Shown: positions 1 to 33,003 of the stretch, in pieces
Layout: each line of letters begins with the position of its first letter
Numbering within the stretch: the first letter of the stretch is position 1
Program-made: the position numbers and the translations under genes
DNA from: Paraspadella gotoi
Lineage: Eukaryota; Animalia; Chaetognatha
Direction of reading: 5' to 3'
Length of the DNA: 64,000 bases
Assembly: GCA_051294375.1 (NCBI GenBank)
Contig: CM119263.1
Coordinates: 6,048,932 to 6,112,931 of the forward strand
Notes under the pieces: generated by a model
Database searches by the model: none
The model's input: the letters and a program-made list of their open reading frames with translations, nothing else
Told to the model about the DNA's origin: nothing

Positions 1-249
1 CGGGAGGGGGGATGTATGGTGGACTAAAATCACCAACAGTTCATCAGCGGCCATTGGGCCGGAGGCAAGTCATTCGCCTCCAACCCAAAGGTCCAGGTCT
101 AGCCCGGTGGCCGCTAGCAGTTAAGACTTAAGAGGGACGGGGCGCGTAACCCGCCTGTAACATGGTGTTACAGCCTGATCCGAAGCTCAGGGACTGATTT
201 ATATTGAACGGTTCTGTTATTAACACTTATCAATAATTACTGTCTTTTC
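1..249 (+). mobile_element. tRNA-head/twister element, subfamily 1 (noisy copy)
   Basis: Near-identical to 21346-21594. tRNA-like GCGGCCA..TGGCCGC followed by twister core GAGGGACGG..TAACCCGC..CCTGA-TCCGAAGC-TCAGG at 117-197; small indels relative to other copies. Confidence 0.75.
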
Positions 250-2830
250 AAAGGGTTAATTTTTCTTTCACCGATCGGAGTGAGCAGGTTTAGGGTTAAG
301 GGGGGTTTAGGGGTGGTTTAGGGATAGGGTGATTAGGGTTAAAAGGGTTTAAAGTTAAGGTAATAATTTTTTAAATTCTTTTAAAAAATAAATATTTAAA
401 GTGATTTTTTAAAGACGCCAAAACCCGGTCGGCAAAAGTAAAATTTAGTCAAGCAAAAATTAATTTTCCTTATTATCAACCCAAGATAATCAAAAACCTG
501 CTCATACTATTTTGAACCTAGTAAAGAGCTAGTTAGTAAACTTCCAACATCGAAATTACTTTACTAATATCGGGCCTACTTTTCAGTAAATAATATACAG
601 AAAATGCGTTGATAAAGAGAACACTTAGTCAACGAGATAAGAGGGGAATTCTGAGCCCGTCAAAATCACGATTCCTCTGTCGCTTTCATCGTCAATATAT
701 GTATATTCANNNNNNNNNNNNNNNNNNNNNNNNNNNNNNNNNNNNNNNNNNNNNNNNNNNNNNNNNNNNNNNNNNNNNNNNNNNNNNNNNNNNNNNNNNN
801 NNNNNNNNNNNNNNNNNNNNNNNNNNNNNNNNNNNNNNNNNNNNNNNNNNNNNNNNNNNNNNNNNNNNNNNNNNNNNNNNNNNNNNNNNNNNNNNNNNNN
901 NNNNNNNNNNNNNNNNNNNNNNNNNNNNNNNNNNNNNNNNNNNNNNNNNNNNNNNNNTCGTAAGTCTGTACATGGAAAAACTTTTCCATTTATAGGAGAA
1001 ATAGATTTAGGATTTTATAGGACGTTGCCTGGATGTCTGGCTATTGCCCATTTAAGCAATTTTTCAAAAAAATAATCTTAAACCACTTAAAAATTGGGTC
1101 AAAATTTTTTTTAAAAACTTGCATAGCTCTAATATATTTTAAATTTTTTTCTTAAAATTTTGCTAACTTGTACTCAAGAGGGTTTGTAAACTTCTGTAGA
1201 AATCTTGTTACTATCAAAAATTTTTTTCCATATTTATCTGGGCTAATATTTTAGATGGGTCATTTTTTCAATGATGCATAACTTCCTTATTTTTGAATAT
1301 TATGGTTTTAAATTTTAGTAATAGGTGGGCCTTGGGTAGTCCTACAATACATATAAATTTCAATCATTTTGAAAAACTTTTTGACACAGGTCAATTTTTT
1401 TTTTACAAAATTCAATTGTCAATCCTGCTAAAAATATTATTGCAAATAATATTATTCTTTGCCTATAAATAGTTAAACATATTTAAAATAAGCCTAAAGC
1501 AAAAAATTTTTTCAACATTTTTAAAAACTCATTTGCATAGGTTGCATTTTATAATTTTTAAATTTTTTCACATAAAACTAATCATTTTTTAAAATTTTTG
1601 GTACACAGATAATTATAATCAGACCTTTAAAAATATACCTTCAAACCTAATTTTTAATAAATTTCAAATATTTTAATGTATTTTATATATTACTCAAAAT
1701 TATAATTTTAATAAGCATTCTGCTAACTTTTTCAAAGTGGGCATCATTGAAAAGAGGGCAACTCAAGTATTCCAAATATATAATTTTTTTACCAATTTAA
1801 TGTCCCAAAGTTGAGATAATTCTTTCCAAAGTGCTCAAAAATTGAAAAAAACACTACTTTTTATCGTTAATAAAAATGCGACTATGATAGTTTTGTTTCA
1901 ATACTTGGTAACTAGGTCAAGAATTGTTATATTTGGTGGTAATGTCATGTCAAGGGAATAAATAAATATTATAGTAGATTCCTCAATCGATTTTTAATGG
2001 CAGAACATTTTACTCTTTTTTACCAAGTTTTTAGAGTATGCTAAACGTTTCTCTGATTACGCAAAATAGAATTTGAGAAATAAAAAATTAATAGTACCAA
2101 TAGTTGGTGTTATGTCTCAAATAGATGGAAAAAAACCTTGTTTAAAAATTTGATTGGATAGGGTAACTTAGGCGTACCAATGGCATCGTCCATGCCAATC
2201 GTTCTTTCAAATAATTTTTTTATTTAATACATTGAAAGGGGAAAAAAGGAAATTCAAAATGCTGGTGGCATGAAAGTTATAAAATCTGGGCATAGTGACT
2301 TGAAAATCATGACCTTTTATGTCTTGCATAATGAGGGCAGTAAATAAACCCAAAAAATGTAATCATTAAGTCGTCAATCAACCCTTTCAAATAGGTTGTT
2401 CTACGAAATTTTTTAGTAAAGAAAATAAATTTTTGAGTGAAGAGAAAAATTTCGCAGAACTCTATTTGAAAGGGTTGATTGACTGACTTAATGAGGCGGA
2501 ATAATGAAACCAAGATGGGGACAGAGGCGGCGCCGAATAAAGGGTGTACGACGGAGTGATCTCCCGGCGCCGGAAAGCGCCGTCGTTGAGCGAGATGAAT
2601 TCGGCGTCGTCGTGGTCGGAAGAGGCGACACGACCGAGAGACACTCGTCGTCAGAGCAAATTCTAAATTTAGGAAATTAAATAATCAATTAAACAAGTTA
2701 TTTAATTTATTATTAATGGGTGGAACATTAAAAATATTGGGATTCTAGGTTAACTAAAGTTTGATTTAACAATTTTAGATATTAGATTTTAAGACAGTTT
2801 AATTATTTGCAACAACAATTTATTATTAAA

Positions 2831-9200: not shown

Positions 9201-11144
9201 AGAAGCATAATCAATTAGTGAAACAGGTTTTTTTTTTCATATAACTCATTTCCACTCAGACGATTCCATTGAGACTTAACATTTGAAACTGAAGAAAAGT
9301 CAAAGGCAGTTGCCACGTTTAGGCCGCAACGTCGTTTATTAAACTGTTTTTAAGTGGATTTTACGTGTTTGTTATTGTGACAAACAATTGAAACTGATTT
9401 TATTCCTCGTCTCCATATGTCTCGGAAAGAATTCAACATTTAAAACATCGTTGGATCTCGATTGTCGTCTACGAGAGAAAGCCAAAATAGACAATTTTGA
9501 TATTAAACCGAGGCAGCTTTAACAGATTGATTAAATAATTAATAGATAAATAAATTGATTGATTGAATAATCAATTTATGATTAATTGACTGATTAATTA
9601 GTTATTGATTATTAATTGATTAACTAATGAATTATTGATTAATTAATACAACTTGAATTTACATTTAATATATAAAAGAAAAAAGAAGCATAATCAATTA
9701 GTGAAACAGGTTTTTTTTTTCATATAAACTCATTTCCACTCAGACGATTCCATTGAGACTTTATTTCCGGCTCAATCCCACACTTTCCTACCCACATACA
9801 AAATCGCCCCATGCACTCCATGAGTAATCGCCATTCAAATAGTGAAATATATTTTTTTTGTTTTTTTCTATTTTAACTCATTTCCTCGGACGATTCCATC
9901 GAAACTTGATTTCCAGCTCAATCACACAATTCCTACCCAGGTCCCATACACAAAATTTCATTCCAATCCATCCAAATCACGAGTAATTGGAGTGTTTTGC
10001 TAAGGTGGATGGACGGACAGACACAGACGGACGGACAGACATCATTTTTTTACATAATTAATCAAAATTCAATTTCTGTGACATATATAAGTGAATGCCC
10101 GACAAGATTGTAGGGAGCGGACGGACGACTTGACAAAGTGAATTATAGAGCCGGAATCTGCTGTTTTGTTTTTATTTGTTTTTTGAAAATTCATACAGAT
10201 TTACAATCCTTCAAGCAGTCTGAACATCCAAGTATCTACGAAAATGTGGACACACCCTAATGAAAAGTCAAAGTGTAAGTCAATATCAATAAAAAAAAAA
10301 AAAAATATTGATATACAAAAAAATCTTAATGCTTTTTTAAACTTGATCTTTAGCCACAACCGTTCATTCACATCCTTCAAAATTTAGGAATGCTCTTACA
10401 AGCATGTTGATATTGAAGTTCATGAAATTATGGTTAAAATATGAAATTAAAGTCTTTTCTCAACTAATGAAGCCATTTTTGAAGAAATAATTTTAATATT
10501 TTTTTACCATCAGTGTTTCAAATTTTTTTTTTTGAAAATGCTTTAAAACGGGCTATATTGAAAAGTACATGGTCAATCAAAATGAAATTTAGCATACACT
10601 GCTAACCCATCTACCTTTATTATTGATGCCATAACAAAAATTATTGATAACATTTTGTGCATAATTTTTTTTTTAAAAGAATCTTTACAGGATTTATCTT
10701 CCGGATTGACTACACTCTATTTTTTAAAAAAATGATGCTCAATTACAAAGAGTACCTAATTGTGAATAAAATTTGTTGGGAAATATTTAGGTTACCTCCA
10801 CAACTCCATAGATAATGCCATCAATGCAGTGGTTTTGTACATTCTGCAGTGTGTGGATGCTGTTGTGGAGCTGCGAGATGGAGTAGAGACTTGAAATTTT
10901 AATATAGTTAACTTTGCACATTTTTTCAACTAATAATTAAGGTGGACGGCAAAATCTCTCAGACTTTAGACACAGTGACTTATGATGTGAAAGGTGTGCT
11001 AAACTGTCTTTAAGCAAGGGTAGACGTAAGGGTGTTAGACCAATTGAATGGCGATTCGGTGCAAACCTATTTATTTTGACCCTGCCCCATCGTGTTAGAT
11101 TTAAATTAGGATCAAGAACAACTTTTAGATTTTGACACACCCTA
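6258..11144. mobile_element. non-autonomous foldback/MULE-like DNA transposon with ~940-bp TIRs and 9-bp TSD
   Basis: Starts TAGGGTGTGTCAAAATCTAAAAG and ends CTTTTAGATTTTGACACACCCTA; 6258-~7197 is inverted against ~10204-11144; ATGTGCCAT is duplicated at 6249-6257 and 11145-11153; no transposase ORF. Confidence 0.85.
8288..9760 (+). repeat. three tandem ~485-500-bp units inside the foldback element
   Basis: TTAACATTTGAAACTGA(A)GAAAAGTCAAA starts units at 8288, 8791 and 9276. Confidence 0.9.
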
Positions 11145-12655
<1,511 letters not shown>

Positions 12656-14828
12656 GTAAGAATATATGTATATATAATTATATATCTCTTCCAAACTTAT
12701 TTGTTATTTCATATTTTTAAGTTTTTCTTTGTGGCTGCTTTACAACTGATGATGCAAATACATTCCAAAAAATTATTTAAAAAATTGTTTTGAATTAAGC
12801 ACTGTAAATATTGTCATGAAAATTTATCTAATTTTAACAATGATTTATTTTTTAATCATTTAATAAGTTAATAATTTATTCTTTGTTTGAGATTAATTTA
12901 TTTTCCTATTTTAATTTAGGAGATTTGATTTATTTCCTACTTGATCTCATTTCCAACCTCAGGCCCGCCTCCTTCCTTCTGCTCAAGTCGCCCTTCACGA
13001 GATTCCCGCCGCCCGCCTTCGTCGTCTGCCCACCGTCCCTTTCTCCTCTTCCTCTTCCTCCGCTTCGGTTCAGCGCCTCTATGTGGGCGGGGCCTTTGAT
13101 CCCTCCCGCCCTCGTCACTCGTCCTACGTGCATCGCGACGTCGCCCTTGTCGGTCACTTGACGCCCGCGCTGCCCGTCACTCTCTCGTCGGGCAGCGAGT
13201 CATCGTCTACTCTGGTGAGTGGAGTTGTTATATAGTTGTTGTTATATTGATCGCCTGCAATTCATTTGTGATAAATTGTTTTCAGTTAAGAAATTTTTAA
13301 CAGTGCCTTGCACTGTTCTCTATTTCCTGTAGCTTCTATACCTCGTCGTCGTTGTCGTTGGATGCCATATCTTNNNNNNNNNNNNNNNNNNNNNNNNNNN
13401 NNNNNNNNNNNNNNNNNNNNNNNNNNNNNNNNNNNNNNNNNNNNNNNNNNNNNNNNNNNNNNNNNNNNNNNNNAAGTTTCGATGGAATCGTCCGAGTGGA
13501 AATGAGTTTATAGTGTAATCGGCTAATCATTCCTCTCCCAACCGCTCTGTCCTGGGTTTCTGCCTACCGCTGTATCCATTCTGAAAAGCAAGGAAAAATA
13601 TCTCAGACCTTTACTGGGAAGTGGGCGCTCTAAGTCTGGGGATTATCAACACTGCAACAACCGGGTTGCCAGTGATGCCCATCTGGGTTGGGTGTTTCAC
13701 CTGTTGTTGGCGTTAGTAGCTTCCGACCTTCAGCTTTTTAGGCAGATCCGATTACAACAAGAAAGACACGACCAGGGAGTAGAAGTTTCTAGCTAACTTG
13801 AGTAGCATCCTTGACTTTGTTAAATTGTGACGAAAACTCTTATCTTTTATGCTTTTTTACTATAGAATAAAATTTTTTTCAGACAATTACCAAATTTTTA
13901 TTTATACAAAATATTGCTGATTTAGAGGAAAGCGAAAGGTATTAATCTTTTTAACAGTATATTAATCATTGTATCGACTTGATTATAAATTCTAACATTT
14001 GANNNNNNNNNNAAACCCGGATCGGCGATTAATAAGGAAAAGGTAAAATATTGTGACAAAATAATGATCAAAGTATTAAAATTNNNNNNNNNNGTAAAAA
14101 TAATCAAAAAGAAAAGGTGAAAATGGGCACGACTCAGAAGATAGGCCTCGTTTCCCTCGAGCTATCCCGCTTGGAGTCGCTCTTTTACACTGAAATCCAC
14201 AGACCGACGTTTCCACGTGTTGAGAGTTTTTATCTGAAAGTTATTAGTTATTATATACGTCGCTCATAAGCGAAAAAAAAAACCGACCGCAAAATTCCGG
14301 TCAGTGAATGTAAAAATAAGATGAATATAGATATTCAAACAATACAATCAATAAATACTAACTACTAAATAATAAAAGAAATCAGTATGAACCACGAACA
14401 ATTACAATTAATCACGATATCGATAAGGAAGTAATACGTGAGATGATGTAGACATATAAACGAATATGAGTCAAAAGAGTCCTGTTCAAACGCCAAATCC
14501 CAAATGATCGCAACATAGATACGACGAGCCGAAAGTCATTATTTCCCTTGTCCTTGACCAGGAGGCAAAAGTTGTCTGAGTTATAAATAGTAATCTGAAT
14601 AGAAATTTAATAATTATTATATTTATGCAGAGACTTCGCTGTACGTATTTATATCGGTTTTTTTTCTTCCTTACTATTGTTTTAAACTTTCTAAAAAAAA
14701 TTGAAAAATATTACTAATATTCAGACACTAATATTATATATATTCTGAAGTAATCCTTTCTTTTTTCGTTGTTATTATTGATTAGAGAATTGACAAAGTT
14801 TTGTTTGCAACGAATTTTATTTATAGTT

Positions 14829-15774: not shown

Positions 15775-17172
15775 TTAGTATTCAATCGTTATCAGTAGCG
15801 CTGGTAAGAAAATGAATATCAAAAAAGAAAAGTTGGGCGTTTGTAAGACAGCGATATCGAGATTGGCGTCAAATTTTTTAAAGAGATTTCGAGGTTTACC
15901 AATCATAAAAAAAAAGTCTTTCTGGTGTTCAGGATTGTTTCTTATGTATTTGCAAACGCTAAGGCTACCAATCAAAGAATTTGCCAGGTGGTAGATAGGC
16001 TGAGATATTTTTAAATATTCCTCCTTGGAATTTTTTCCCTGTAATGTTTTAAACAAATGTTTGCCAAAAATATTTTCATTATAGTAAATCATCTTCTTTG
16101 AAAGTAGCTGTGAATATGATAATATGTAAAGCAAGTTACCTAAAACCACAATGAATATTTTCCCCAAAAAACTATGTTTCATGCATCTAATTTCTTTTAA
16201 AATATTAAACCAAAAACCGAGAAAAGGAATTAATATCAAACTGTAAATAAGAAGGCAATTTTCCCGTATGAAAATATATGTTAAAATTATAGATATAATT
16301 TTTGAGTATTTCGGTTTCTTGGATTCTGGTATGGAGAAGTTGCAAAATTTTAAAAAGTGCAACTCTCCTTCATTTAAAAGGTTTTCTGTCAATTCTTTGA
16401 AAAAGATAACATAAAAAATTCCTAAAAGATTTGTTATTGTCATAAATAAGATAATAAAAAAAAATTTTACAACTTTAAATCTTTTAATGAAGTAACAGTT
16501 AAATAAACCTAAGCTAAATACTAAAGAATGAATAAGACACCAGTTTACTAATAAACTTTGGAACCAACTCGCCCAAAATTGCGTATTTAAGAGCTTGTTT
16601 TCAATTACTTTGGGTACAATATGAGATACATTAAAGTCTCGCTTTCCTCTGAATATAAAAAAATTATCCTTGCTAAAAGTTTTTTTCTCTAAATAGACAT
16701 TCAAAAGATTAAGATTCTTTATTGAATAATACAGGTTACAATAAATAATAATTGCTACTACAAATAATGTGCTTAAAGCTATAAGTGATTTAAAAAAAAT
16801 ATTTTTCAAATAAAAAAGATTAACCCAATAACCAAGAGACAGTAAAATTTCACAAAGAAGTAAACTTAGCTGCATTCTAAATCCCAGACTTAACCTATAG
16901 TTACCTAGCTTCATATTGCTTACTCTGACGTTTGAACAGTTTTTTTGGTATGGTATATTGTATTGAAAAAATGAAACCCTTTTCCATTTTTCATTTATCA
17001 TGCCTTTTACTTTGAAACACGAGGATTCTTCAAACGATGGTATATTATTTATAATATGAATGGGCTTTAAAAAAAGTAACAACCGGGCGGATATATCATT
17101 TTGTAAATATTTCAGTCCCCATTTGTTGTAGCCATCTTTTGTAAAGATAAAGTTCAAGTGTTGTTCTACCAT
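15775..17172 (-). CDS. intronless 465-aa multi-pass membrane protein of unknown family
   Basis: 1.4-kb open frame in very AT-rich DNA with roughly 7-8 hydrophobic segments; no motif recognised. Confidence 0.6.
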   Translation of the reverse strand: MVEQHLNFIFTKDGYNKWGLKYLQNDISARLLLFLKPIHIINNIPSFEESSCFKVKGMINEKWKRVSFFQYNIPYQKNCSNVRVSNMKLGNYRLSLGFRMQLSLLLCEILLSLGYWVNLFYLKNIFFKSLIALSTLFVVAIIIYCNLYYSIKNLNLLNVYLEKKTFSKDNFFIFRGKRDFNVSHIVPKVIENKLLNTQFWASWFQSLLVNWCLIHSLVFSLGLFNCYFIKRFKVVKFFFIILFMTITNLLGIFYVIFFKELTENLLNEGELHFLKFCNFSIPESKKPKYSKIISIILTYIFIRENCLLIYSLILIPFLGFWFNILKEIRCMKHSFLGKIFIVVLGNLLYILSYSQLLSKKMIYYNENIFGKHLFKTLQGKNSKEEYLKISQPIYHLANSLIGSLSVCKYIRNNPEHQKDFFFMIGKPRNLFKKFDANLDIAVLQTPNFSFLIFIFLPALLITIEY

Positions 17173-18601
17173 TTTAGAAAAAGAGTACAGAATCAGAGGT
17201 TAAACTGTGCGAGATAATCATTTCTTTAATAGTTTTTTAGAATTTTGCTCGCACGTAAGATTCATAGAAAATCACTTAAATAAATTAAGAAAAAATATTC
17301 TCTTTAATTCGCACAAAGAAAATATTCTAAATAGTATTGTGGGAAATAAAAAGAAACAGACGTAGGAAAATTTATTGTCATATCAAAAACAAGAAATAAA
17401 AGTAGGGAAATTCCTAAGACTCCCTGAAGTACTCCAAGAACTTGGTCATTTTATTTGCAAAACTGAAGAAATACAATCTGTATTGGAAACGGAGGCTTCT
17501 CGAATATCTATCTGCGCATTTTGCCAAACTGAATGTCGATAAAACTATAGAAAACAATAGAAAATATTCCCGAATTCTCCAGCTGCAGATTTCAATGCGT
17601 TTTATAATGCGTTCCAAGATTTTGCAGGAACAGGTGATTTGAGTTTTTAAAGAGCTCCATTCCGGCCTAGCTCGTACACCCTACCTGGAATCCATAAATA
17701 GTTGTTAATCGAAACATCATTTAATCGGTAATCGTATACTGCCTGAAAAATTATGAAACAAATTATTCCCCAAGCATATCTCATTGGTTTCACCAGTCCA
17801 ACCCAAGACAGTGACCATTGTCTGTATCACCATCTGCGGAAAAGACTCAAAGTAAAACGTGGATGAGATTCATCTTCTTTATAAACGTAGTTTTCATTTC
17901 AATCACCCGTTGATGAACCTTTAAAAAAAATAAATATATCTATTGTATTGTGATATTTAGGCAAAAAATATCCGGCATGCGTAAAAGTATTTATTTATTT
18001 TTTTCTATGTAAAATTTCCTTCCGATGTCTGTTTCCCAAGGTCAAACCGTTAAAAAATTATAATGAATATAAGATGGCTATATCTAGTGAAAAATGGAGA
18101 ATGTCGCAAATATTTGCCTGGAACCAGGTACGAGGGTCATTAGGAGACTATTTAAAATCATCATATTATCATATTATTGGTATACAATACGGAAAATTAT
18201 TTTTTTCTCATTTAAATTATTTTTTACGGAATTTTATGGAACTAAAAATGTTAGATTAAAGATATTATTAAAATTGTACAATTTTTTTAGTATAAATTTT
18301 TAAAAAATGGCAAATTTATAAAATGAAGATGATTATTTTTTATTTTGTTAACTTTTTACGCTTATAAAAGTAGCCATAGCCGATGAAATTTAAATGCTAA
18401 TGTATACAGCGTTAAAATAATCTATCATGCCCATAGATTATGGTATTAAAATATTTTTTGTCAAAAATGCTTTCTTCTGAGGGTACTCGCCTAATTAAAA
18501 ATATTATATTACTATATAGAGCAAAAAATATTTTTTTAAAATCTTAAAATTTGTTGATGGATTCTGATAGAGCATAAAAAGTTAAACAAGAAATATAATT
18601 A

Positions 18602-18787
18602 CGGAGGCAAGTCATTCGCCTCCCAACCCAAAGGTCCGGGGTTCTAGCCCGGTGGCCGCCTAGCAGTTAAGAGGGACAGGGCGCTTAACCCGCCTGTAAC
18701 ATGGTATTACAGCCTGATCCGAAGCTCAGGGACTGCTTATATTGAACGGTTCTGTCATTAACACTTATCAATAATTACTGTCTCTTC
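18602..18787 (+). mobile_element. tRNA-head/twister element, subfamily 1 (5'-truncated, first of a tandem pair)
   Basis: Matches 19021-19207; twister at 18663-18736, with the T1 strand reading ACAGG instead of ACGGG. Confidence 0.8.
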
Positions 18788-19006
18788 ATTGGTGAGCCCG
18801 ACTTCCGAACACAACAGCAACAACAACACTTTCAGGCGACTTGCCTCAACCTAGAGATGCACTTTCCGCCAACAACACATCAGGCGATATGCCTCAACTT
18901 GGTGACGCACTTTCCACCAACAACAATTCACTGAAGAGATGCAACAGACTTCTCCCTACGGGAGGGGGGGATGTATGGTGGACTAAAATCCACCAACCGT
19001 TCATCA

Positions 19007-19079
19007 GCGGCCATTGGTGCCGGAGGCAAGTCATTCGCCTCCCAACCCAAAGGTCCGGGGTTCTAGCCCGGTGGCCGCC
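19007..19079 (+). ncRNA. tRNA-derived head (pseudo-tRNA, Pol III A/B boxes)
   Basis: 73 nt; acceptor stem GCGGCCA/TGGCCGC, A-box-like TGGTGCCGGAGG, T arm CCGGG-GTTCTAG-CCCGG; D and anticodon arms are poor. Confidence 0.75.
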
Positions 19080-19081
19080 TA

Positions 19082-19155
19082 GCAGTTAAGAGGGACGGGG
19101 CGCTTAACCCGCCTGTAACATGGTATTACAGCCTGATCCGAAGCTCAGGGACTGC
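19082..19155 (+). ncRNA. twister ribozyme, P5-type permutation (subfamily 1)
   Basis: GCAGUU-AAGAGG-GA-CGG-GGCGCU-U^AA-CCC-GC-CUGUAACA/UAUUACAG-CCUGA-UCCGAAGC-UCAGG-GACUGC; T1 CCG/CGG, T2 GC/GC; predicted cut 19105/19106. Confidence 0.8.
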
Positions 19156-19462
19156 TTATATTGAACGGTTCTGTCATTAACACTTATCAATAATTACTGT
19201 CTCTTCACCTTTTAATCAATAAATAAGCCATCTTCCCCCTGACTTCTTACTTGAAAAGTAGGATTAAGGCCTTTATCCTTTTTACAAAATGATTATATAT
19301 AACATATATAATCATTATATATATCATCATAATATATTGGTTGTACCAATTTCATATAAAGACATTGAAGTGACCGAGAGGAGAGAGGGTCGCTATGCCT
19401 CTCTGTGAGTGAGAATAGCCCCCACACCCAGTGAGTCGGGGAGATTTTTTTTGTCAGTTGCA

Positions 19463-19617: not shown

Positions 19618-20214
19618 TTGCATGAGCCAGTCATATCCAACGGGTAGAAATATTACATCACTACAACATATTCAAACGTCAATACAACGAATTAACTTAA
19701 TACTTGCTAGTACAAATCAATTTAGTTGCAACAAGATAAAATAATTTAATTGCAGTTAAGAGATCCGTCACTGCTATGAGAAAATATTTTAAAAATTAAA
19801 CACCATAACTAGACTTTTCAAGCTTTTTTATTTTTGTGTCTAACTAATCTGCTTCATGTATCCCTGCCTATACTATATGTAATTATATATACTATGCATT
19901 TCATTCCTTACTATCAATCTATCATTCCTGAGTTTTAAATAACTTTTACCTTATCTATTTTCCTTTATTCAGTTTTAAATCTTATCTTAAATCTTGTCTG
20001 GAAGCTCATCCCATGTTAAATCTTAAATATTATCTTATCTTTTAAATCTTACCGTATCCTGCTTTTGTTCTTCAAGGTGAAGGTCAAAAGCGAAGGGGAC
20101 GTAGCCGAGACCAACGAGGAGGAAAAACGCAACGACCGCTCGACGCCGACAATCGGAAAAGAGCAGTTGAAAATCAGCCTGTCGGCGAATATAATATAGC
20201 TTAAGGGAGTGGTC

Positions 20215-20461
20215 TTTTCATACAATTGAAACATTCTTTGAAATATTTTCCACTTCATTGATAGGGAAGCCAGGTACTCTGGGAGTGAATAAACGAGACT
20301 GTGAAAGAGTCTTGATTGAAAGCTTGCAGGGACCTGCTATGTCATTATCTTGTAAGAGTGATGGAGGCCTTAAACCACCAAAGCCTGTCCAAAGTCAGGG
20401 GCAAGATAGCTTATTTATTAAATGAATGGATAATTTTTATATTGGTTGTACCAATTTCATA
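20215..20461 (+). repeat. ~245-bp dispersed repeat (copy at 45074-45310; fragments near 19210, 23270, 26395)
   Basis: TTCATACAATTGAAACATTCTT...AAAGTCAGGGGCAAGA.AGCTTATTTATTAAAT...TTGTACCAATTTCATA is shared. Confidence 0.8.
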
Positions 20462-21328
20462 GAGTATAAAAAAATTCAAAGTATAATAATTTCGCCATAT
20501 ATATATTTATATATGATAATAATGATTTACCGACAAGATTTTGGGGTGGGACCGACGGACCGACAAAGCGAATTATAAAGTTGAAATCTGCAGATAAGCA
20601 GATCCGATTAAAAAGTTTATAATCGTTTGATTTCAAAAATTTACACATCATATAAAACTGTAAGGAGTTCTGGATCCAACTTTTATAGTAAATACAGTTT
20701 TTATAACTGTACGAATTTATTGTATTCATTTTTAAAGTGACAGTACGTTTGAGACACTCTATACTTTTTGCATAGAATCTAGATGGTATCTTTCAGATTT
20801 GGGTGTTTACGTATTTATCACCACAGCACAACGCCTTGAACTTGCATTGAATTTTTTAGTTTAATCTCACCCGTTGAGAGCGTAGAAAGGCGAAGCCGTG
20901 AAGGGAGGAGACCAAAGAGTGNNNNNNNNNNNNNNNNNNNNNNNNNAAAGATAATTACAAATAAGAGCTCCAACCAACAAGGCGAAAGTAGAAAGCCTCT
21001 GACAACAGGTGCGTCACGGTTATCTGTCAAGAGATGATAAGCAGGCTTGGGTCCTTTGCTTCGAAAGGTTTTTCATGCTTGTTAAATTAATCATACGTAG
21101 AGCGAGGATTACCGACAGGGAAAATAGACTAGAGATATAGAGAAATTAAGAAAAAAGAATTTTTTTAGCTCTCTAACAACACTAATAATACTAATTACAT
21201 TTTATCCTTTTACTATTCAATAAATATTACATTACATATACTACACGTATACTATGTATAATACGCAGTATAATTGTCATTATGGACTAAAATCAACCGA
21301 CTGTTCATTCGCGGCCAGTCAAGGACAC

Positions 21329-21594
21329 AACAGACTTCTCCCTACGGGAGGGGGGATGTATGGTGGACTAAAATCCACCAACAGTTTCATCAGCGGCCAT
21401 TGGTGCCGGAGGCAAGTCATTCGCCTCCCAACCCAAAGGTCCGGGGTTCTAGCCCGGTGGCCGCCTAGCAGTTAAGAGGGACGGGCGGGCGCTTAACCCG
21501 CCTGTAACATGGTGTTACAGCCTGATCCGAAGCTCAGGGACTGATTATATTGAACGGTTCTGTTATTAACACTTATCAATAATTACTGTCTTTT
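21329..21594 (+). mobile_element. tRNA-head/twister element, subfamily 1
   Basis: Conserved upstream CAGACTTCTCCCTACGGGAG..GGTGGACTAAAATCCACC, tRNA-like head 21393-21465, twister 21468-21544 with perfect P3 CTGTAACA/TGTTACAG. Confidence 0.8.
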
Positions 21595-22400
21595 CAAAGG
21601 GTTAATTTTTCTTTCACCGATTGGAGTGAGCAGGTTTAGGGTTAAGGGGGGTTTAGGGGTGGTTTAGGGATAGGGTGATTAGGGTTAAAAGGGTTTAAAG
21701 TTTAAGGTAATTAGTAATAAATTTTTTAAAATTCTTTTTAAAAATAAATATTTTAAGTGATTTTTTTAAAAGACGCCAAAACCGGTCGGCGAAAGTAAAA
21801 TTTAGTCAAGCCAAAATTAATTTTGCTTCATTATCAACCCAAGATAATCAAAAACCTGCTCATCACTTATTTTGAACCTAGTAAAGAGCTAGTTAGTAAA
21901 CTTCCAACATCGAAATTACTTTAACTAATATCGGGCCTACTTTTCAGTAAATAATATACAGAAAATGCGTTGATAAAGAGAAACACTTAAATCCATTTTT
22001 GATGGGTACACGTTCCTATTTTCCCAACTTACTTTTGCCAAATTCTTGGCAGGATCTTACCTTTAGGTCGGAGCCTACGTCGAGAACGTTGAGCCAATGT
22101 TATCGGTCATGCAGAATTTAGATTAAATCTCCATTTGCACAGCAGAATGAATATACAGGTTTTATAGAGAATAAATAAATATCTTGTCATAATTCAAATA
22201 AATTGTATCTGTATTATTTAAAATTTTTAGATTAGTTTCTTTTTTTTATTAAGTTTATTTCTTGTTTTGATCTCGTTAATTTTACCTATTTTTCCTCAAA
22301 AGACTGGGTATCTTTTTAAAAAAGCCACTTTTAAACATAAATAATTCAAGTAATAAAGTTTAATCTGTTTGACAATAAAAACTTGTTGCATATGCATTAA

Positions 22401-23004
22401 GGCGTAGTGAACGTTACATACGAAAATTCTAAAAGTCAATTATGAATAACATACTATCAGTGAACATTAATTTGTAAAAAAAATTAATTTTTTGTTTTTT
22501 AATTTTCGCAGTAGGCTAATTTATATATAGTACTATCCTTATAAAATCGAAAAATTTCAAAATAGGCTTTTCTTAATTTTGATTGCAGATTTGAATTCCT
22601 CGTTAAAAGTTGATAGAAGAAAATATAAATCATTTTTAAAAATTCCTTCATTAAGTTGGTTAAAAATTAAAAAAACTATATTTAATATATAAAAAGTTAA
22701 TTTGCAGCTTAAAATATAGCTTTTTCTAATTTTTGACCCACTTAATGAAGGAATTTTTCAAAAAGAGTTATATTTCTTTTTATCAACTTTTTATGACGAA
22801 TCCAAATCTGCAAAAAAATTTTGGAAAAAACTGTTTTGAAATTTTAACATTTATTGGTTTAGTACTAGTATAAATCTGGCCTACTGCAATTGTAAAATTT
22901 ATTATAATTTTTTTTATTACATAAATGTTCATTAGTATAATATGTTGTTCGTTCCTCACTTTTAGAATTTTAATTAAAGTTAAATTTAAAAATTTTACTA
23001 CGCC
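22401..23004. mobile_element. palindromic MITE with TTAA flanks (Kolobok-like)
   Basis: TTAA|GGCGTAGT ... ACTACGCC|TTAA; the internal halves are imperfect reverse complements. Confidence 0.7.
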
Positions 23005-24237
23005 TTAATATGCATAAGCAAGTTTGTTTTTTTGTTTTTTTTTGTTGGTTTTTTTTTTAATTATAAGTTGTCAATAAATAGATTTTATAGAAAGCTTAGG
23101 TCGTCCTTTTATATAGGCGTTTTATTTCGAATTCAACAAGTTGATTCAGTACATACAGGAGCATCAAAACAAAGCTAAGTCTAAAGACAAAACAAAGTTA
23201 AAGATTGCCCGAAAAGATACAGTGGCTGATATGAACCAAGGTTCTCGGGTCGAGAAGAAAGAAGAATAAAAGTCAGGGGCAAGATACCTTATTTATTAAA
23301 TGGATGGATAATTTTTATATTGATTGTACCAATTCAATAATTGAAAGAAATAAATAGGAGGTTGATTTAAGATTAAAAAATAAGCTCGTGATAACAATAT
23401 CATGTTTGCGGAATGAAAAGTTCTACAATTGTAGATTAAGATTTACGAGAAGCGAAAATTATGATCGGGAAGAGGATGACTCTAATCGTCGCGACGGATC
23501 TGTGGATCAATCTGTCCATCCCTCAAAAACGGAAATACCAAGTGTTGTTGTTGTTGTTGTTTTTTTGTTGTTGTTTTGTTGTTGTTGTATGTTGTTGTTT
23601 TTGTTGTTGTTGTGGTTTTGTTTTTGTTGTGGTTTTTTGTTGTTGTTGTGTTTTTTGTTGTTTGTGGTTGTTGTTGTTGTTTTTGTTGTTGTTTTTTTTA
23701 TTTTTGTTGTTTTTGTTGTTGTTGTTGTGACCATTGTCGTAGGCGTTGTCTCATTTGACGATAATTAGTTTCCGTTATCAAATTTGACGCCTAATTGACA
23801 CTCGTCGCCACCTGAGATTTTAAACGTTTCCGCTGAATTTATGGCGGATTAATCGCGTTTATTATGTCGCATTTGCCTGCAGTTGCGTGAGCGTAATTGG
23901 GGAAGAGAGTAAGAAGATTTTAACAATGCGTGATGAGGTCAACGAGATAAGAGGGAATTCTGAGCCCGTCAATATCACGGATTCCTCTGTCGCTTTCATC
24001 GTCAATATATGTATATTCACTATATTGTAGTAACTTATACTAAAAAGTTTAGTTCATTGGAAGAAGAAAAGAATTATGACATGAAGTCGTGAACGATGGA
24101 TTATATAAGCTAGAGCCGATATATGAAATTTGTTCAATATTATATTGATAAAATTGACTTTTTCTTATGCGTTTTGTTTATTCCTTCTTTGGTAAATAGT
24201 GTCTTGTTAGCGAATCCTAAATTTGCCTCCCGTATAG

Positions 24238-24470
24238 CTTGGTAAAATTCAGATCGTCCCTTTGGCTTGGACAGCTAAATACTCGTTCACCAATCGTGTC
24301 ATTCGGGTTCAATCCCCTCACGGACTCGCTGGTTAAAGTGTGATGGCGTCGGCATAAATACGCCAGTGACATGGCATGGTCACTGCAGGTCCAAATCCCT
24401 GACCGCCATCTTTCGGAATGTGTATAACACCCCGGCCATCACACATGTCCCCCGTTGCCAATAGTCTAGT
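24238..24470 (+). mobile_element. tRNA-head/twister element, subfamily 3
   Basis: A-box-like TGGCTTGGACAG, B box GGTTCAATCCC (24306-24316); twister 24331-24404 GGUU-AAAGUGU-GA-UGG-CGUCGGCA-UAA-AUAC-GC-CAGUGAC/GUCACUG-CAGG-UCCAAAUC-CCUG-ACC; tail CCCGTTGCCA shared with subfamily 2. Confidence 0.75.
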
Positions 24471-27386
24471 ACTTTCGTCTCTCACGCGAATAGACCGTGG
24501 TTCCATTCCCCGCCAAGTATGAAGAACTTCATTTGTTTTTAAAATTATATTTCATCGATAAGAATTATTTTTTTCCATCTCTACTTTTACACAATTTTTC
24601 TATGGCATCGATTATAACGTGCATAGTATGCTTATTTATATTTATTATCATTAGTTGAATGAACGCGGTTAGGCGAGAAATTATTTTCTCACTCTTGTTA
24701 AAACAATAAACTGGCAAATTTACGTGCCCCCAAAAAAATAGGCTCTGACTAAAGCAAAACTCCCCAAAAAAGATAACTCTTGACATTTTGTCACATTCCT
24801 GCGAAGTTCACATTCTTTGAAGTTATTCTCCGAAAATCTAATTACGCCTTCGTCCGGATAACGTGGGGGAAAAAAACTTTTTTTTTCATTCATTAGGTTT
24901 TAAAAACTTTTCTCCTGCCTGAATTGGCTGCATTAAAACATAGCATCTTGCTTCTCATTTTGTCCAGATGATGCTTTTCGTATTATTTTCTTTGGTGTCA
25001 TTTTCCCGTAAGTAACCCTTATTTTTTTATCAATTTATAAAGTAATTAAATAAACAAAAACAAAGATGTTTTCTCCGTGAAGATTGTGTTGTTGTTCGTT
25101 CGTTTATTTCGGCAGTTCTCGTCCTTTTGTCGGCGTCTCGAGTTTCACTAAGGTTTTACTAACGTTTTCTTAATTAATGTGATAAAGTTTAATAATTAAA
25201 ATAAATTAAATAAAGTTAAGTAAAATTAAAACAGTTTGAATCACCGAGAATATTTGACGAAAAAATGAAAAAATGAAATTTTAAATCTTCAGCGGTTCTG
25301 GGTCGAATCATATGCGACTTTCAGCGACCGGTCCGGCCTGGCTCGAACCCGGCTCCGTTCCGACGCGGCAAATTTTCTCGTCGACAACCACATTGACACC
25401 TGCGAATACAGATGCACCGAGGAAGCGGCGCGGCTTCCCTGTAAGGCCATTGCCCTCGCCGAAGACGGAATGCTGGATGCTTCCCTACGATTACGATGAA
25501 TACTTTGCGGCCAATAGGATTAGATCCTCGATGGGATTACATTTTTTACACTCCCGAATGCTACGGTTGGTTGGTTTTTGTCATAAAACAATCTATATGA
25601 AAACATATCACTGTTGGTTTAAGACATTTCAAAAATAATTTGTCAAAGCAAGTTTTGAAAGCGAAAACTGGGTTTAATACTTATTTTAATTCTTGTTTTT
25701 TTTTTCCCCCATATGAGAAAAAAAGATTTTCGTCGGTCAGATTTAGCCTTAAGAAATTTTAGTTTCATTTATATGCAATTGATAAAGTGTAAAATAAAAT
25801 TGTACAGTGCTTGTTTCCTTGTTTTACTAAATATATAAACTAAGTAAATATCATATTCTTCGATTATCACGCAGACGACGAGACGCGACTTCCGGTAGAG
25901 GGAAAAAAATGCCGCCGCTCTCAAGATTGGCCTCGCGAGACTATCCCGCCAAGAACGTCCACGGGAGATGACGAGCGACGCTTCGGCCCGCGCGATTACA
26001 CGTTGTATCCCTGGGAGACGAGGAGTTCGAATCGACCGACCAATCGCCCGACGGTTCGAAAGACTAAAATCCCGACGAATCCATCTCGTCTCTTTAATTA
26101 AAGTTAAATTTAAAAATTTTACTACGCCTTAATATGCATAAGCAAGTTTGTTTTTTTGTTTTTTTGTTGGTTTTTTTTTTAATTATAAGTTTGTCAATAA
26201 ATAGATTTTATAGAAAGCTTAGGTCGTCCTTTTATATAGGCGTTTTATTTCGAATTCAACAAGGTTGATTCAGTACATACAGGAGCATCAAAACAAAGCT
26301 AAGTCTAAAGACAAAACAAAGTTAAAGATTGCCCGAAAAGATACAGTGGCTGATATGAACCAAGGTTCTCGGGTCGAGAAGAAAGAGAATAAAAGTCAGG
26401 GGCAAGATACCTTATTTATTAAATGGATGGATAATTTTTATATTGATTGTACCAATTCAATAATTGAAAGAAATAAATAGGAGGTGGATTAAAGATTAAA
26501 AAATAAGCTCGTGATAACAATATCATGTTTGCGGGAATGAAAAGTTCTACAATTGTAGATTAAGATTTACGAGAAGCGAAAATTATGATCGGGAAGAGGA
26601 TGACTCTAATCGTCGCGACGGATCTGTGGATCAATCTGTCCATCCCTCAAAACGGAAATACCAAGTGTTGTTGTTGTTGTTGTTTTTTGTTGTTGTTGTT
26701 TTTGTTGTTGTTGTATTTGTTGTTGTTTTTGTTGTTGTTGTGGTTTTTTGTTTTTGTGTGGTTTTTTGTTGTTGTTGTGGTTTTTGTTGTTGTGTTTTGT
26801 GGTTGTTGTTGTTTTTTGTTGTTGTTTTTTTTATTTTTGTTGTTTTTGTTGTTGTTGTTGTGACCATTGTCGTAGGCGTTGTCTCATTTGACGATAATTA
26901 GTTTCCGTTATCAAATTTGACGCCTAATTGACACTCGTCGCCACCTGAGATTTTAAACGTTTCCGCTGAATTTATGGCGGATTAATCGCGTTTATTATGT
27001 CGCATTGCTGAGTTGCGTGAGCGTAATTGGGGAAGAGAGTAAGAAGATTTTAACAATGCGTGATGAGGTCAACGAGATAAGAGGGGAATTCTGAGCCCGT
27101 CAATATCACGGATTCCTCTGTCGCTTTCATCGTCAATATATGTATATTCACTATGATGGTAGTAACTTAACAAAAAGTCTTAGTTTGACAAACTAGCTTC
27201 ATTTGGAAGAAGAAAATAATTATTGACATGAAGGTCGTGGAACGATGGATTATATAAGCTAGAGCCGATATATGAAATTTGTTCAATATTATATTGATAA
27301 AATTGACTTTTTCTTATGCGTTTTGTTTATTCCTTCTTTGGTAAATAGTGTCTTGTAGCGAATCCTAAATTTGCCTCCCGTATAGC

Positions 27387-27620
27387 TTGGTAAAATTCAG
27401 ATCGTCCCTTTGGCTTGGACAGCTAAATACTCGTTCACCAATCGTGTCATTCGGGTTCAATCCCCTCACGGACTCGCTGGTTAAAGTGTGATGGCGTCGG
27501 CATAAATACGCCAGTGACATGGCATGGTCACTGCAGGTCCAAATCCCTGACCGCCATCTTTCGGAATATGTATAACACCCCGGCCATCACACATGTCCCC
27601 CCGTTGCCATAGTCTAGTAC
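27387..27620 (+). mobile_element. tRNA-head/twister element, subfamily 3 (duplicate copy)
   Basis: As 24238-24470; twister at 27479-27552. Confidence 0.75.
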
Positions 27621-28210
27621 TTTCGTCTCTCACGCGAATAGACCGTGGTTCCATTCCCCGCCAAGTATGAAGAACTTCATTTGTTTTAAAATTATATTTC
27701 ATCGATAAGAATTATTTTTTTCCATCTCTACTTTTACACAATTTTCTATGGCATCGATTATAACGTGCATAGTATGCTTATTATATTTATTATCATTAGT
27801 TGAATGAACGCGGTTAGGCGAGAAATTATTTTCTCACTCTTGTTAAAACAATAAACTGGCAAATTTACGTGCCCCCAAAAAATAGGCTCTGACTACAAGC
27901 AAAACTCCCCAAAAAAGATAACTCTTGACATTTTGTCACATTCCTGCGAAGTTCACATTCTTTGAAGTTATTCTCCGAAAATCTAATTACGCCTTCGTCC
28001 GGATAACGTGGGGGAAAAAAACTTTTTTTTCATTCATAGGTTTTAAAACTTTTCTCCTGCCTGAATTGGCTTGCATTAAAAACATAGCATCTTGCTTCTC
28101 ATTTTGTCCAGATGATGCTTTTCGTATTATTTTCTTTGGTGTCATTTTCCCGTAAGTAACCCTTATTTTTTTATCAATTTATAAAGTAATTAAATAAACA
28201 AAAAACAAAG

Positions 28211-31200: not shown

Positions 31201-33003
31201 TCTTCGCATAAAACGTTTGGTAGTAATCGAAATAACACAATTAAAAGTTCTAAATTGATGAGTTATAATCAACAAAATGTTGGCGGTAGAAACGTTCATC
31301 TCACGCATCATCAGTCTCACCATACAATTCTTAAAGTGACTCGATTAGAAAACCGTTTGAGGGAATATGAGTCTCAAATTAGGCGGTTACAACAACAAGA
31401 AGCAGAGAGAGAAAAATTGTTGTTAATTCAAAGAGAAAATGAGAAGAAAACGGAAGAAAGAGTATTAAAGATAGAGCAAGAGAGAAAAGAATTAGAAAAT
31501 CGACGCATTTTGGCGGAAAAGGAAAGGCTGAACAAGGAAAAGTTAAATCTGAACGCTTGGAAACAAAAGATTCTCGTGGAGCAGAGGAAATTGCAAGAGG
31601 AGAGAAGACAAATCGACGACGCTGACCGAAGGAGAAGACAACACGAGGGAAGGCTCCAAGAGAAGGAACGATTGCTCCAAGAGAAGCAGGAGAGGCTGGA
31701 ATCTGAAAAGAAGATCGTGAAAACGGAAAAGGCGGAACAGGAACGCGATCAGGAAAGGATCGAGTCGGAGGAGCGTCAAGCGAGAGAACAAAAGGAGGAA
31801 TTACAGAGAGAGAGGAAGCAAATCGAAGGGGAGAAGCGGAGATTGGCGAAATTGAAAAAGAAAAACGTGGAAGCTTTGGAAAAGAAGAAAATGGAATTGT
31901 CGACGACGCCGTCTCCCTCGACGACGAAGGCCGACCACAAAACCGATCAGGACGAAGAGATGGAGAAACTGTTGGAGAAATTGAGTGGAGAAAACGAGGA
32001 GTTGGAAAAGAAGAAAATGGAACAATTGGATCAATTAGCTCGATTGGAAGAGGAAAACGTTCGAGCCCAGAGATTGGTCAAAGATTTAAAGAGGGAAAAG
32101 GGCAGCTTGAGAAAGAAATTAAAACAATTACAAGAAGCGGAAAAAGATGAAGAGGAAAAAAATGTTTACGTCCCGGAGGCGGCAGTAAATTCTGCGCTGA
32201 TTGAAACGACGAAAAAGATTAAAACGACGACGACGACGTCGACAAGTACGGCGTCAACCACAACAACGGCTTCAACGACATCGGAAATAGAAAAGGGCGA
32301 ACCGATGATTGTAGGTGAGTTCTGACTTTTCTTTCTTTGTCGCATGATTACATTTTACGTTTCTTGTGATTCGTCTTATTTCTCCTTTACTATCACTCAG
32401 AGAGATCTGAACCAGATCCCTTGCGTGCCCTTTACGTCGCCATCGCCATCTTTGCCTTCATCATTCTGATGCTTATCTTGCTCGCCTGTTGCCTGTCGAG
32501 ATGGAGGTGAGTGACATCGATCGTTTTCCAACTCGACTTTTATCCCAAAAAGTTCAAAACGTGAGGTCGAATGGGAAATTCCTTTTTGGTCGAAAACTAA
32601 TTAGGTTTTAAAAGGAACGACGAGCTGGTAGTTTAAAAGTTTAAAATGTGAAATATGTAGTAGATATTTCAACACAGACTCACGCTTGTCATAACACATA
32701 ATTGAACTTTTTCGTTTGTTAATTTTGTTACGCAGAAAACGTAGAGACCAAATGCTTCTTTTGGCCGGAGACTCGGAAGCCTTCGGCGGTGTTTCTAAGC
32801 AGGCTTCTATCGCTTCTGGTAAATATCGGAACGTCGAGATACTCTGGATGTTAGCTAATGGAAAAGGGGATAGTAAAGAGACATAGGATAAGTAATAGCG
32901 ACATTTTTAATAAGCGAGAAACGAAACTAATTATTACAAAAATTGCTGGTTTTTTATAGAGAGAAATGAACGGTAACCTGAGGGCAAAAAGAGCGTTGGT
33001 AGA

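What the first reader, a model, noticed from the sequence alone, without database searches (positions are those of the whole stretch)
18686..19105. Cleavage-to-cleavage monomer of ~420 nt: retrozyme-like circular RNA candidate
Seen: two twisters lie 419 nt apart, there is no TTTT between them despite the AT-rich genome, and TTTT appears right after the last copy (19210). About 65 nt upstream of the tRNA head is conserved in dispersed copies, which a classical SINE starting at its head would not carry. Upstream AACCGTTCA can pair with TGAACGGTT downstream of the ribozyme. Inference: Pol III read-through plus double cleavage releases a permuted monomer that keeps its internal promoter and could circularise, as hammerhead retrozymes do. 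Caveat: the upstream twister here has a T1 mutation.
Basis: partly seen in the sequence, partly recalled or inferred. Interest (0 to 1): 0.78.

Follow-up and report, generated by a model that had tools for sequence, protein, structure and literature searches.

The report
Animal LTR mini-retrotransposon with twister ribozymes
A small, much-repeated jumping element in an animal genome carries in each terminal repeat a tRNA-like segment (a likely promoter) and a predicted self-cutting 'twister' RNA, so it likely copies itself through a 419-base RNA circle, a design that the papers I could search describe only in plants and with a different ribozyme.

Summary
The sequence observations hold: two twister-like motifs 419 nt apart, the upstream one with a T1 mismatch. 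The 187-nt repeat is a long terminal repeat (LTR). Contigs from four public runs laid on the locus show a high-copy family with fixed ends (18974 and 18788/19207), a family-wide spacer, and ATAT at most junction consensuses. The spacer opens with a tRNA-Trp-type primer site (13 of 14 nt) and closes with a polypurine tract. So this is a Helenus-like TRIM (tRNA-like head in the LTR) that also carries a type-P5 twister-like motif in each LTR. That is the layout of plant LTR retrozymes, here in an animal and with another ribozyme class. The LTR identity is well supported (~0.9). The twister keeps all catalytic and pseudoknot positions but departs in P1, P2 and the P4 closing pair, has no Rfam match and is untested (~0.7). 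A circle is inferred only; no RNA data bear on it (~0.5). This locus itself is damaged (5' LTR lacks 47 nt, T1 mismatch). The 'no TTTT' argument is weak. Verdict: new variant of a known kind.

The parts
18602..18788 (+). 5' LTR remnant; lacks the first 47 nt of the LTR (most of box A); ends in CA
   Evidence: 186 of 187 nt identical to 19021-19207; loose ends pile up behind 18788
18662..18737 (+). twister-like motif, copy 1, predicted cut 18686/18687; one T1 mismatch
18687..19105 (+). 419-nt cleavage-to-cleavage unit (predicted RNA monomer or circle)
   Evidence: existence as RNA not shown
18789..18973 (+). internal region, 185 nt, no Pfam match in the frame scanned; family-wide, with a 48-nt unit repeated 2.2 times at 18821-18925
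18789..18802 (+). primer-binding site of tRNA-Trp type directly behind the LTR's CA
   Evidence: 13 of 14 nt identical to the PBS region printed for Gypsy-32_NVi and Helenus-2_SyJa in the supplement of PMC10886601
18960..18971 (+). polypurine tract, 12 purines, followed by TG and the LTR start
18974..19207 (+). complete 3' LTR, 234 nt, TA...CA as judged from junction contigs (TG lies at 18972-18973)
   Evidence: loose ends before 18974/18973 and behind 19207
18976..18995 (+). 7-bp hairpin at the LTR start
   Evidence: 18974-19010: z -4.63, 0 of 200 shuffles as stable
19007..19078 (+). tRNA-like head: 7-bp acceptor-like stem, box A-like and GGTTC box B-like motifs, T-arm-like hairpin; not a tRNA gene
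   Evidence: ARAGORN and Rfam negative
19081..19156 (+). type-P5 twister-like motif, copy 2, predicted cut 19105/19106: P5 19081-87/19150-56, P2 19090-93/19108-10, GA+T1 19094-98, T2 19111-12, P3 19113-31, P4 19132-36/19145-49, L4 19137-44
   Evidence: compared with Table 1 of PMC8501958
18995..19170 (+). 9-bp stem (18995-19003 with 19162-19170; in the monomer with 18743-18751) that encloses head and twister
   Evidence: predicted
21283..21596 (+). second locus: diverged LTR-start piece (21283-21317), end of internal region with polypurine tract, and a complete LTR (21359-21596) with T1 intact
1..250 (+). second, indel-rich rendering of the 21345-21596 locus (shared flank); likely an assembly duplicate or allele

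Best explanation
This is a high-copy, non-coding LTR mini-retrotransposon of an animal whose LTRs each carry a tRNA-like head and a predicted type-P5 twister ribozyme, and it likely transposes through a 419-nt RNA circle, as plant LTR retrozymes are thought to. Shown: LTR - primer site - 185-nt internal region - polypurine tract - LTR, fixed family ends, and the order hairpin / tRNA-like head / twister-like motif / tail in the LTR. [quoted passage not shown] The locus in the window is a damaged copy and probably not a source.
For: Fixed ends: loose-end contigs before 18974/18973 number 162+46 (X1), 63+26 (X5), 29 (X9); behind 18788/19207(8) 57+54 (X1), 22+30+14 (X5), 15 (X9); these are the top rows shown, 851 further rows were not shown. 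All bins of the spacer are covered at high summed depth in X1, X5 and X9. Junction consensus is ATAT in 6 of the 8 multi-contig rows at 18974/18788/19207 (the others GTAT, ACAT), and the off-by-one rows read ATAG and CTAT, which are reverse complements. PBS 13 of 14 nt to tRNA-Trp-primed Gypsy-32_NVi and Helenus-2_SyJa; 12-purine tract. Twister: U|AA, GA, L4 UCCGAAGC, T1 3 bp, T2 2 bp, P4 5 bp, P5 7 bp, same order of motifs as Schistosoma twisters; descriptor 0 hits in 8 Mb simulated; of 327 motif-only matches in viral contigs 23 had P4 of 3 bp or more and 1 also passed P2 and P5, with P4 of only 3 bp. Family variants shown in the motif: 19125 A>G (98-100% of depth) restores a P3 pair, 19121 is in the P3 loop, the T1-breaking 19140 G>A is 1-15%. 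About 94% of 2625 natural type-P1 twister candidates cleaved, and P1, P2 and most P4 imperfections were tolerated (PMC11662667). Double cleavage without R and circle templating is the model for plant retrozymes (PMC4918200); twister pairs plus RtcB make circles from Pol III transcripts in the engineered Tornado system.
Against: No cleavage, transcript or circle is shown. Rfam's twister models do not match even at E 10. Departures from consensus: P2 has three 5' bases against GAGG (bulge or mismatch), P4 closes with A-U where a G-C pair is called essentially invariant (PMC5408937), and P1 is at most one G-U pair on a small loop; one review notes that changes in P2 length might disturb the active site. 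The tolerance data are for type-P1 twisters only. The motif's nested fold is not unusual (z -1.11, 26 of 200 shuffles) and the predicted minimum-energy fold pairs the T1 strand with the P2/T2 strand. No covariation could be tested. Paired target-site duplications were not seen: the 5' end is lost here, the 3' flanks of the two window loci begin CCTT and AAGG, not ATAT, and the flank consensuses have low agreement (0.41-0.50) in AT-rich DNA. The 5' junction lies at TA, not the usual TG. No autonomous partner was found in the window. The second locus has TTTT at the LTR end, which could stop Pol III in the 5' LTR, though 4 U alone terminated poorly in a human-cell assay.
Confidence: 0.5

Rival explanations
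1. The element is a Helenus-like TRIM with an active twister, but its RNA stays linear. Cleavage is partial or conditional; a cut in only the 3' LTR makes the 3' end (in place of a terminator) and leaves a ~99-nt terminal repeat (head plus 5' half of the twister), so ordinary LTR strand transfer works. Circles, if any, are by-products.
For: Same LTR, PBS, PPT and motif evidence. The predicted competing hairpin over the cut site would make cleavage incomplete. Cassandra is reported to transpose from a linear Pol III transcript with short terminal duplications (PMC10886601).
Against: Both LTRs of a fresh copy are identical and both motifs lie downstream of the head, so nothing in the sequence favours the 3' one. 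Double-cut ends would be held together and are RtcB substrates.
Confidence: 0.25
2. The element is an ordinary Helenus-type TRIM; the twister-like motif is a non-cutting relic (for example captured with a SINE or RTE 5' end) or a coincidence.
For: No Rfam match; three departures from consensus; descriptor written after the fact; known Helenus families are described without any ribozyme and 0 matches to three motifs of this family were found in that paper's supplement text.
Against: All catalytic and pseudoknot positions are present in register, 0 hits in 8 Mb simulated, and the majority allele restores P3 while T1-breaking alleles are minor.
Confidence: 0.2
3. One reading: a non-LTR, tandem or permuted retrozyme-like repeat (or a SINE dimer) whose copies start and stop at varied points of the 419-nt unit.
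For: This locus does look like 1.45 units starting inside the head; tandem arrays could not be excluded from short contigs.
Against: Junctions pile up at two fixed points, PBS and PPT sit exactly at the LTR borders, and flanks show an ATAT preference. Animal non-LTR retrozymes are reported to lack LTR, PBS and PPT.
Confidence: 0.05

Closest known systems
Helenus (TRIMp3; Kojima 2024, PMC10886601)
   Same: Short non-coding LTR element (about 650 nt; Helenus 311-1263), tRNA-like sequence with GGTTC box B in the LTR, PBS and PPT at the borders of a short internal region, tRNA-Trp PBS as in Helenus-2_SyJa and Gypsy-32_NVi, probable 4-bp target preference as in animal Helenus.
   Different: A twister-like motif follows the head; the paper's main text has no mention of twister and mentions ribozymes only for plant retrozymes. 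Junctions place the 5' end at TA rather than TG. No sequence match to a described family was found by motif search of the supplement.
Plant LTR retrozymes (Cervera et al. 2016, PMC4918200)
   Same: One self-cleaving motif per LTR, PBS, PPT, non-coding interior, Gypsy-type borders, cleavage-to-cleavage unit lacking R that could circularise.
   Different: Animal host; twister (type P5) instead of type III hammerhead; tRNA-Trp instead of tRNA-Met primer; internal tRNA-type promoter; smaller unit (419 nt vs about 600-1000). Cleavage and circles are shown for plant retrozymes and not here.
Animal non-LTR retrozymes (Cervera and De la Pena 2020, PMC7229834; schistosome repeats with a tRNA)
   Same: Animal host, unit of 150-450 nt, proposed RtcB circularisation; schistosome repeats also hold a tRNA.
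   Different: Those are tandem repeats with type I hammerheads, without LTR, PBS or PPT, linked to Penelope-like elements.
Twister variants at the 5' end of Perere-3 (RTE-type) elements (Liu et al. 2021, PMC8501958)
   Same: Twister in an animal retrotransposon; similar run of letters after the cut (P2-GC-P3 start).
   Different: Those are type P1, single, at the 5' end of a non-LTR element, with the target duplication supplying P1; here type P5, two per element, inside LTRs.
Tornado expression system (engineered; as described in bioRxiv 10.1101/2020.09.11.294140)
   Same: Pol III transcript, two twisters, tRNA-like scaffold, RtcB ligation to a circle.
   Different: Synthetic, external U6 promoter, not mobile; here the analogy is a prediction.

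Membership tests
TRIM / Helenus (TRIMp3) | Two LTRs around a short non-coding interior, under about 1 kb | tested here: met
   187-nt repeat with 1 difference, full LTR 234 nt, interior 185 nt; fixed ends
TRIM / Helenus (TRIMp3) | PBS directly behind the 5' LTR | tested here: met
   CA-T-TGG, 13 of 14 nt to tRNA-Trp PBS regions in PMC10886601 Fig. S2 text; the host's own tRNA-Trp was not available
TRIM / Helenus (TRIMp3) | Polypurine tract before the 3' LTR | tested here: met
   12 purines at 18960-18971; alone it is weak (35 such tracts before TG on the + strand of the window), its position is what counts
TRIM / Helenus (TRIMp3) | tRNA-derived sequence with boxes A and B in the LTR | tested here: met
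   GGTTC box B-like motif, box A-like motif that departs from Helenus TRGCY, 7-bp acceptor-like stem; ARAGORN and Rfam do not call it a tRNA
TRIM / Helenus (TRIMp3) | 4-bp target-site duplication (animal families) | tested here: inconclusive
   ATAT in 6 of 8 junction consensuses, each side seen separately; no pair in the two window loci
TRIM / Helenus (TRIMp3) | TG...CA termini | tested here: inconclusive
   3' end CA is met; 5' junctions pile at 18974 (TA), two bases inside the TG that follows the PPT
TRIM / Helenus (TRIMp3) | Transcription by RNA polymerase III | not testable with these tools
   no raw RNA reads available
Twister ribozyme, type P5 | U|AA at the cut, GA in L1, L4 of form U-N3-AAGC | tested here: met
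   against Table 1 of PMC8501958
Twister ribozyme, type P5 | Pseudoknots T1 (3 bp) and T2 (2 bp) | tested here: met
   met in copies at 19105, 21494 and 147; T1 has one mismatch in the copy at 18686
Twister ribozyme, type P5 | Stems P1, P2 (4 bp) and P4 with G-C closing pair | tested here: inconclusive
   P4 5 bp but A-U closing; P2 2 pairs plus a bulged or mismatched third; P1 minimal. Such defects are mostly tolerated in type-P1 twisters
Twister ribozyme, type P5 | Match to an Rfam twister model | tested here: not met
   hence 'twister-like', not filed as an Rfam family member
Twister ribozyme, type P5 | Site-specific self-cleavage | not testable with these tools
   needs an in vitro assay
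Plant LTR retrozyme | Type III hammerhead in each LTR | tested here: not met
   no hammerhead match; the motif is twister-like, so it works like, but is not, a member
Plant LTR retrozyme | LTRs, PBS, PPT, non-coding interior | tested here: met
   primer is Trp-type rather than Met-type
Plant LTR retrozyme | Circular and linear RNA of the size between the two cuts accumulates in vivo | not testable with these tools
   only contigs were available
Animal non-LTR retrozyme | Tandem repeats with type I hammerhead, no LTR/PBS/PPT | tested here: not met
tRNA-derived SINE | 5' end at the tRNA head, LINE-type 3' tail, variable 3' end | tested here: not met
   5' junctions lie 33 nt upstream of the head and 3' ends are fixed at CA

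The most novel reading that the evidence does not exclude
An animal LTR retrozyme that arose independently of the plant ones: a Gypsy-dependent TRIM that uses a tRNA-type Pol III promoter and a pair of type-P5 twisters to make an abundant 419-nt circular RNA, which is the template for reverse transcription. It would be a natural counterpart of the engineered Tornado system and would show that 'ribozyme in each LTR, circle instead of R' is a general, repeatedly evolved way for LTR elements to transpose.
Probability: 0.45. Interest if true: 0.85.

Novelty: new variant of a known kind. Interest (0 to 1): 0.72.

Why it matters
Papers on retrozymes divide them into plant LTR forms with type III hammerheads and animal tandem forms without LTR, PBS or PPT. 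This family crosses that line in host, ribozyme class and promoter. If it cuts and circularises, the circle-template model of LTR transposition gains an independent case in an animal, with a short and high-copy element on which it can be tested. It would also give a biological role to a type-P5 twister in a eukaryote and suggests screening TRIM and Helenus LTR libraries for ribozymes that Rfam models miss. If the motif is inactive, it remains a new Helenus-like family of modest interest.

Tried and rejected
No whole genome is held, so copies could not be pulled out with both flanks; target duplications, copy number, tandem arrays, host tRNA-Trp and the autonomous partner stay open. Sequencing runs: no RNA holder listed; X9 is only guessed to be RNA and its contigs show the same AT-rich junction flanks as the DNA runs, so it says nothing on expression. 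All four runs are contigs; no starts, ends or strand can be read, and a circle junction has the same letters as an LTR, so contigs cannot show it. Contigs were laid on 18300-19260 only. X10 (another organism code) gave 2 low-depth contigs whose differences match the majority alleles of organism A; treated as possible carry-over, not as a second host. Rfam at gathering and E-value thresholds: no twister, tRNA, 5S or hammerhead; weak hits (RCNMV_5UTR, snoRNAs) rejected as chance. A type-P1 reading of the twister using GAACGG at 19164 was rejected: no P2 partner, and the descriptor found no P1-type hit. Metagenome scan with the LTR start gave 1 locus, an unrelated prokaryote-like chance match. 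No reverse transcriptase or integrase among 59 of the 76 open frames of 90 aa or more that were scanned against Pfam (the 17 not scanned overlap long ORFs or are repetitive). Earlier findings of this scan: nothing returned. The supplement of PMC11662667 could not be read and might list related twisters; the Kojima supplement was searched by short motifs only. The 'no TTTT' argument was tested and set aside.

Full report
Setting. The window is AT-rich animal DNA with assembly gaps. An SLC7-type transporter ORF has its best named hits in nemerteans and molluscs at 40-44% identity and unnamed hits at 62-65%, so the host is an animal of a poorly sampled lineage. No whole genome is held.

Observation. 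The finding's letters are right. 18602-18788 repeats at 19021-19207 with 1 difference in 187; predicted cuts lie at 18686/7 and 19105/6, 419 nt apart; there is no TTTT between them and TTTT begins at 19210. The absence of TTTT is not remarkable (319 of 2000 shuffles, 102 of 1168 genomic windows), and the other locus in the window has TTTT inside the end of the repeat. The two 'dispersed copies' are one locus seen twice, since 1-627 matches 21345-21989 with flanks.

What the repeat is. I laid contigs from four public runs on 18300-19260. The family is very abundant (21094, 2653 and 1234 contigs laid from X1, X5 and X9; 2 from X10). The spacer is covered throughout in the first three, so it belongs to the family. 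Loose ends pile up at two points: before 18974/18973 (162+46, 63+26, 29 contigs) and behind 18788/19207 (57+54, 22+30 plus 14 at 19208, 15); only the best-supported rows are printed, 851 are not. The unit 18974-19207 is therefore a 234-nt terminal repeat ending in CA. Directly behind the upstream repeat comes T-TGG and a run 13 of 14 nt identical to the tRNA-Trp primer-site region printed for Gypsy-32_NVi and Helenus-2_SyJa. Directly before the downstream repeat lie 12 purines and TG. The junction consensus reads ATAT in 6 of 8 multi-contig rows, and the off-by-one rows give ATAG and CTAT, as a palindromic 4-bp target preference would; agreement is low (0.41-0.50), the two sides are not paired, and the two window loci do not show it. 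The 5' junction at TA rather than TG is unusual and unexplained; it would follow if the two bases after the purine tract are the ones trimmed at integration (inference). Together this is a terminal-repeat retrotransposon in miniature.

Inside the LTR. From 5' to 3': a 7-bp hairpin, a tRNA-like head at 19007-19078 with a 7-bp acceptor-like stem and a GGTTC box B-like motif (not called by ARAGORN or Rfam), a twister-like motif at 19081-19156, and a 51-nt tail. The motif reads as the type-P5 permutation: P5 7 bp, then GAGG, GA plus the T1 strand, a tiny P1 loop, U|AA, CCC, the T2 GC, P3, and P4 5 bp around UCCGAAGC, matching the motif order tabulated for Schistosoma twisters. A descriptor built on these features finds 3 of 4 copies in the window, failing only the copy with the T1 mismatch, and nothing in 8 Mb of simulated DNA; among 327 motif-only matches in viral contigs, 1 passed P4, P2 and P5, and only weakly. 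The descriptor was written after the sequence was seen. Among the six family variants listed inside head and motif, the near-fixed one restores a P3 pair and the T1-breaking one is 1-15% of depth; 58 further variant rows were not printed. Against: no Rfam twister match, a 3-base P2 strand, an A-U pair where G-C is called nearly invariant, almost no P1, an unremarkable folding z-score, and a predicted hairpin that competes with the active fold. A large test of natural type-P1 twisters found about 94% active and tolerant of P1, P2 and most P4 defects but sensitive to pseudoknot mismatches. I put activity of majority copies at about 0.7.

How it most likely works. Because each LTR holds the motif downstream of the head, a Pol III transcript from an intact 5' LTR would be cut twice, giving 419 nt with PBS, PPT and the head but no terminal repeat. 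For plant LTR retrozymes this very problem is proposed to be solved by circularisation, and RtcB ligates such ends efficiently for animal retrozymes in vitro and in the engineered Tornado system. A Gypsy-type enzyme set, suggested by the Trp primer site and the ATAT bias, would copy and insert it. All of these steps are inferred. No RNA evidence was obtainable. This locus is an unlikely source: its 5' LTR lacks 47 nt including most of box A and its 5' motif has the T1 mismatch, and another high-copy repeat abuts it at 18371-18602. The main rivals are a linear intermediate with partial cleavage (0.25) and an inactive motif in an ordinary Helenus-type TRIM (0.2); the tandem or permuted reading is unlikely (0.05).

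Comparison with what is known. It meets the tested structural features of Helenus TRIMs (tRNA-like sequence in the LTR, PBS, PPT), with target duplication and 5' terminus inconclusive. It works like a plant LTR retrozyme but is not a member, as it has no hammerhead. Animal retrozymes are described as tandem, hammerhead-bearing and without LTR, PBS or PPT. Twisters in retrotransposons are described at the 5' end of non-LTR RTE-type elements. Searches listed no paper whose title or abstract start describes a twister in the LTR of a TRIM or an animal LTR retrozyme (65 showed 30 of 195 hits, 66 showed 14 of 15); the library lacks most subscription journals, Repbase entries and the original twister paper's lists, so prior notice cannot be excluded.

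What I saw of each paper. PMC10886601: parts 1-4 and 6 of 6 of the text, a term search, and supplement passages found by motif. PMC4918200: passages and the Discussion. PMC7229834 and PMC7761336: passages. PMC8501958: abstract and first quarter of Results. PMC11662667: abstract and sections 4, 9, 32, 33; supplement not readable. PMC5408937, PMC12542633 and bioRxiv 10.1101/2020.09.11.294140: passages. bioRxiv 10.64898/2026.07.22.740005: Introduction. General LTR replication steps, box A/B labels and the link of ATAT targets to Gypsy-type integrases are partly recalled knowledge.

Verdict. Real feature, new variant of a known kind, interest 0.72. LTR identity about 0.9, active twister about 0.7, circle as transposition template about 0.5.

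Noticed in passing
window 18371-18602: A different high-copy repeat abuts the truncated 5' LTR; contigs begin near 18371 and continue past 18602 with other letters. It probably caused or marks the loss of the LTR's first 47 nt.
   Followed up: partly
window 18972-18974: Family junctions start at TA (18974), two bases inside the TG that follows the purine tract, which suggests non-canonical TA...CA termini.
   Followed up: partly
window 19101-19112 and 18682-18693: Twelve letters around the predicted cut also occur in both Ajax LTRs printed in the supplement of PMC10886601. I saw no twister L4 loop in those LTRs by eye; chance or a shared LTR motif.
   Followed up: partly
window 19132-19149: The P4/L4 segment has a recalled, untested resemblance to the box A region of 5S rRNA; Rfam gave no 5S match.
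   Followed up: no
window 19218-19245, 20338-20419, 23270-23297, 26393-26420, 45243-45276: A short motif of another dispersed repeat lies just behind the 3' LTR and recurs in reverse elsewhere; 20214-20461 also matches 45072-45310 at 88%.
   Followed up: no
window 1-627 / 21345-21989; 22969-26081 / 26093-29224; 6255-7195 / 10204-11147; 8288-9761: Long duplications (93%, 97%, 93% inverted) and a 485-bp unit in 3 tandem copies; some are likely assembly duplicates.
   Followed up: no
window 40062-41972 (+) and 42317-43891 (+): Two long uninterrupted GC-rich ORFs: an MFS-type transporter and an SLC7-type amino-acid permease.
   Followed up: partly
window 12196-12790 (+); 47861-48160 (+): Exon-sized frames with protein kinase and MELK-type UBA matches, and a peptidase M24 match.
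   Followed up: no
window 28987-32325 (+); 15775-17199 (-); 34953-36266 (+): Long ORFs (1112, 474, 437 aa) without Pfam match; the first is Thr/Arg-rich with a coiled-coil-like end, the second hydrophobic.
   Followed up: no
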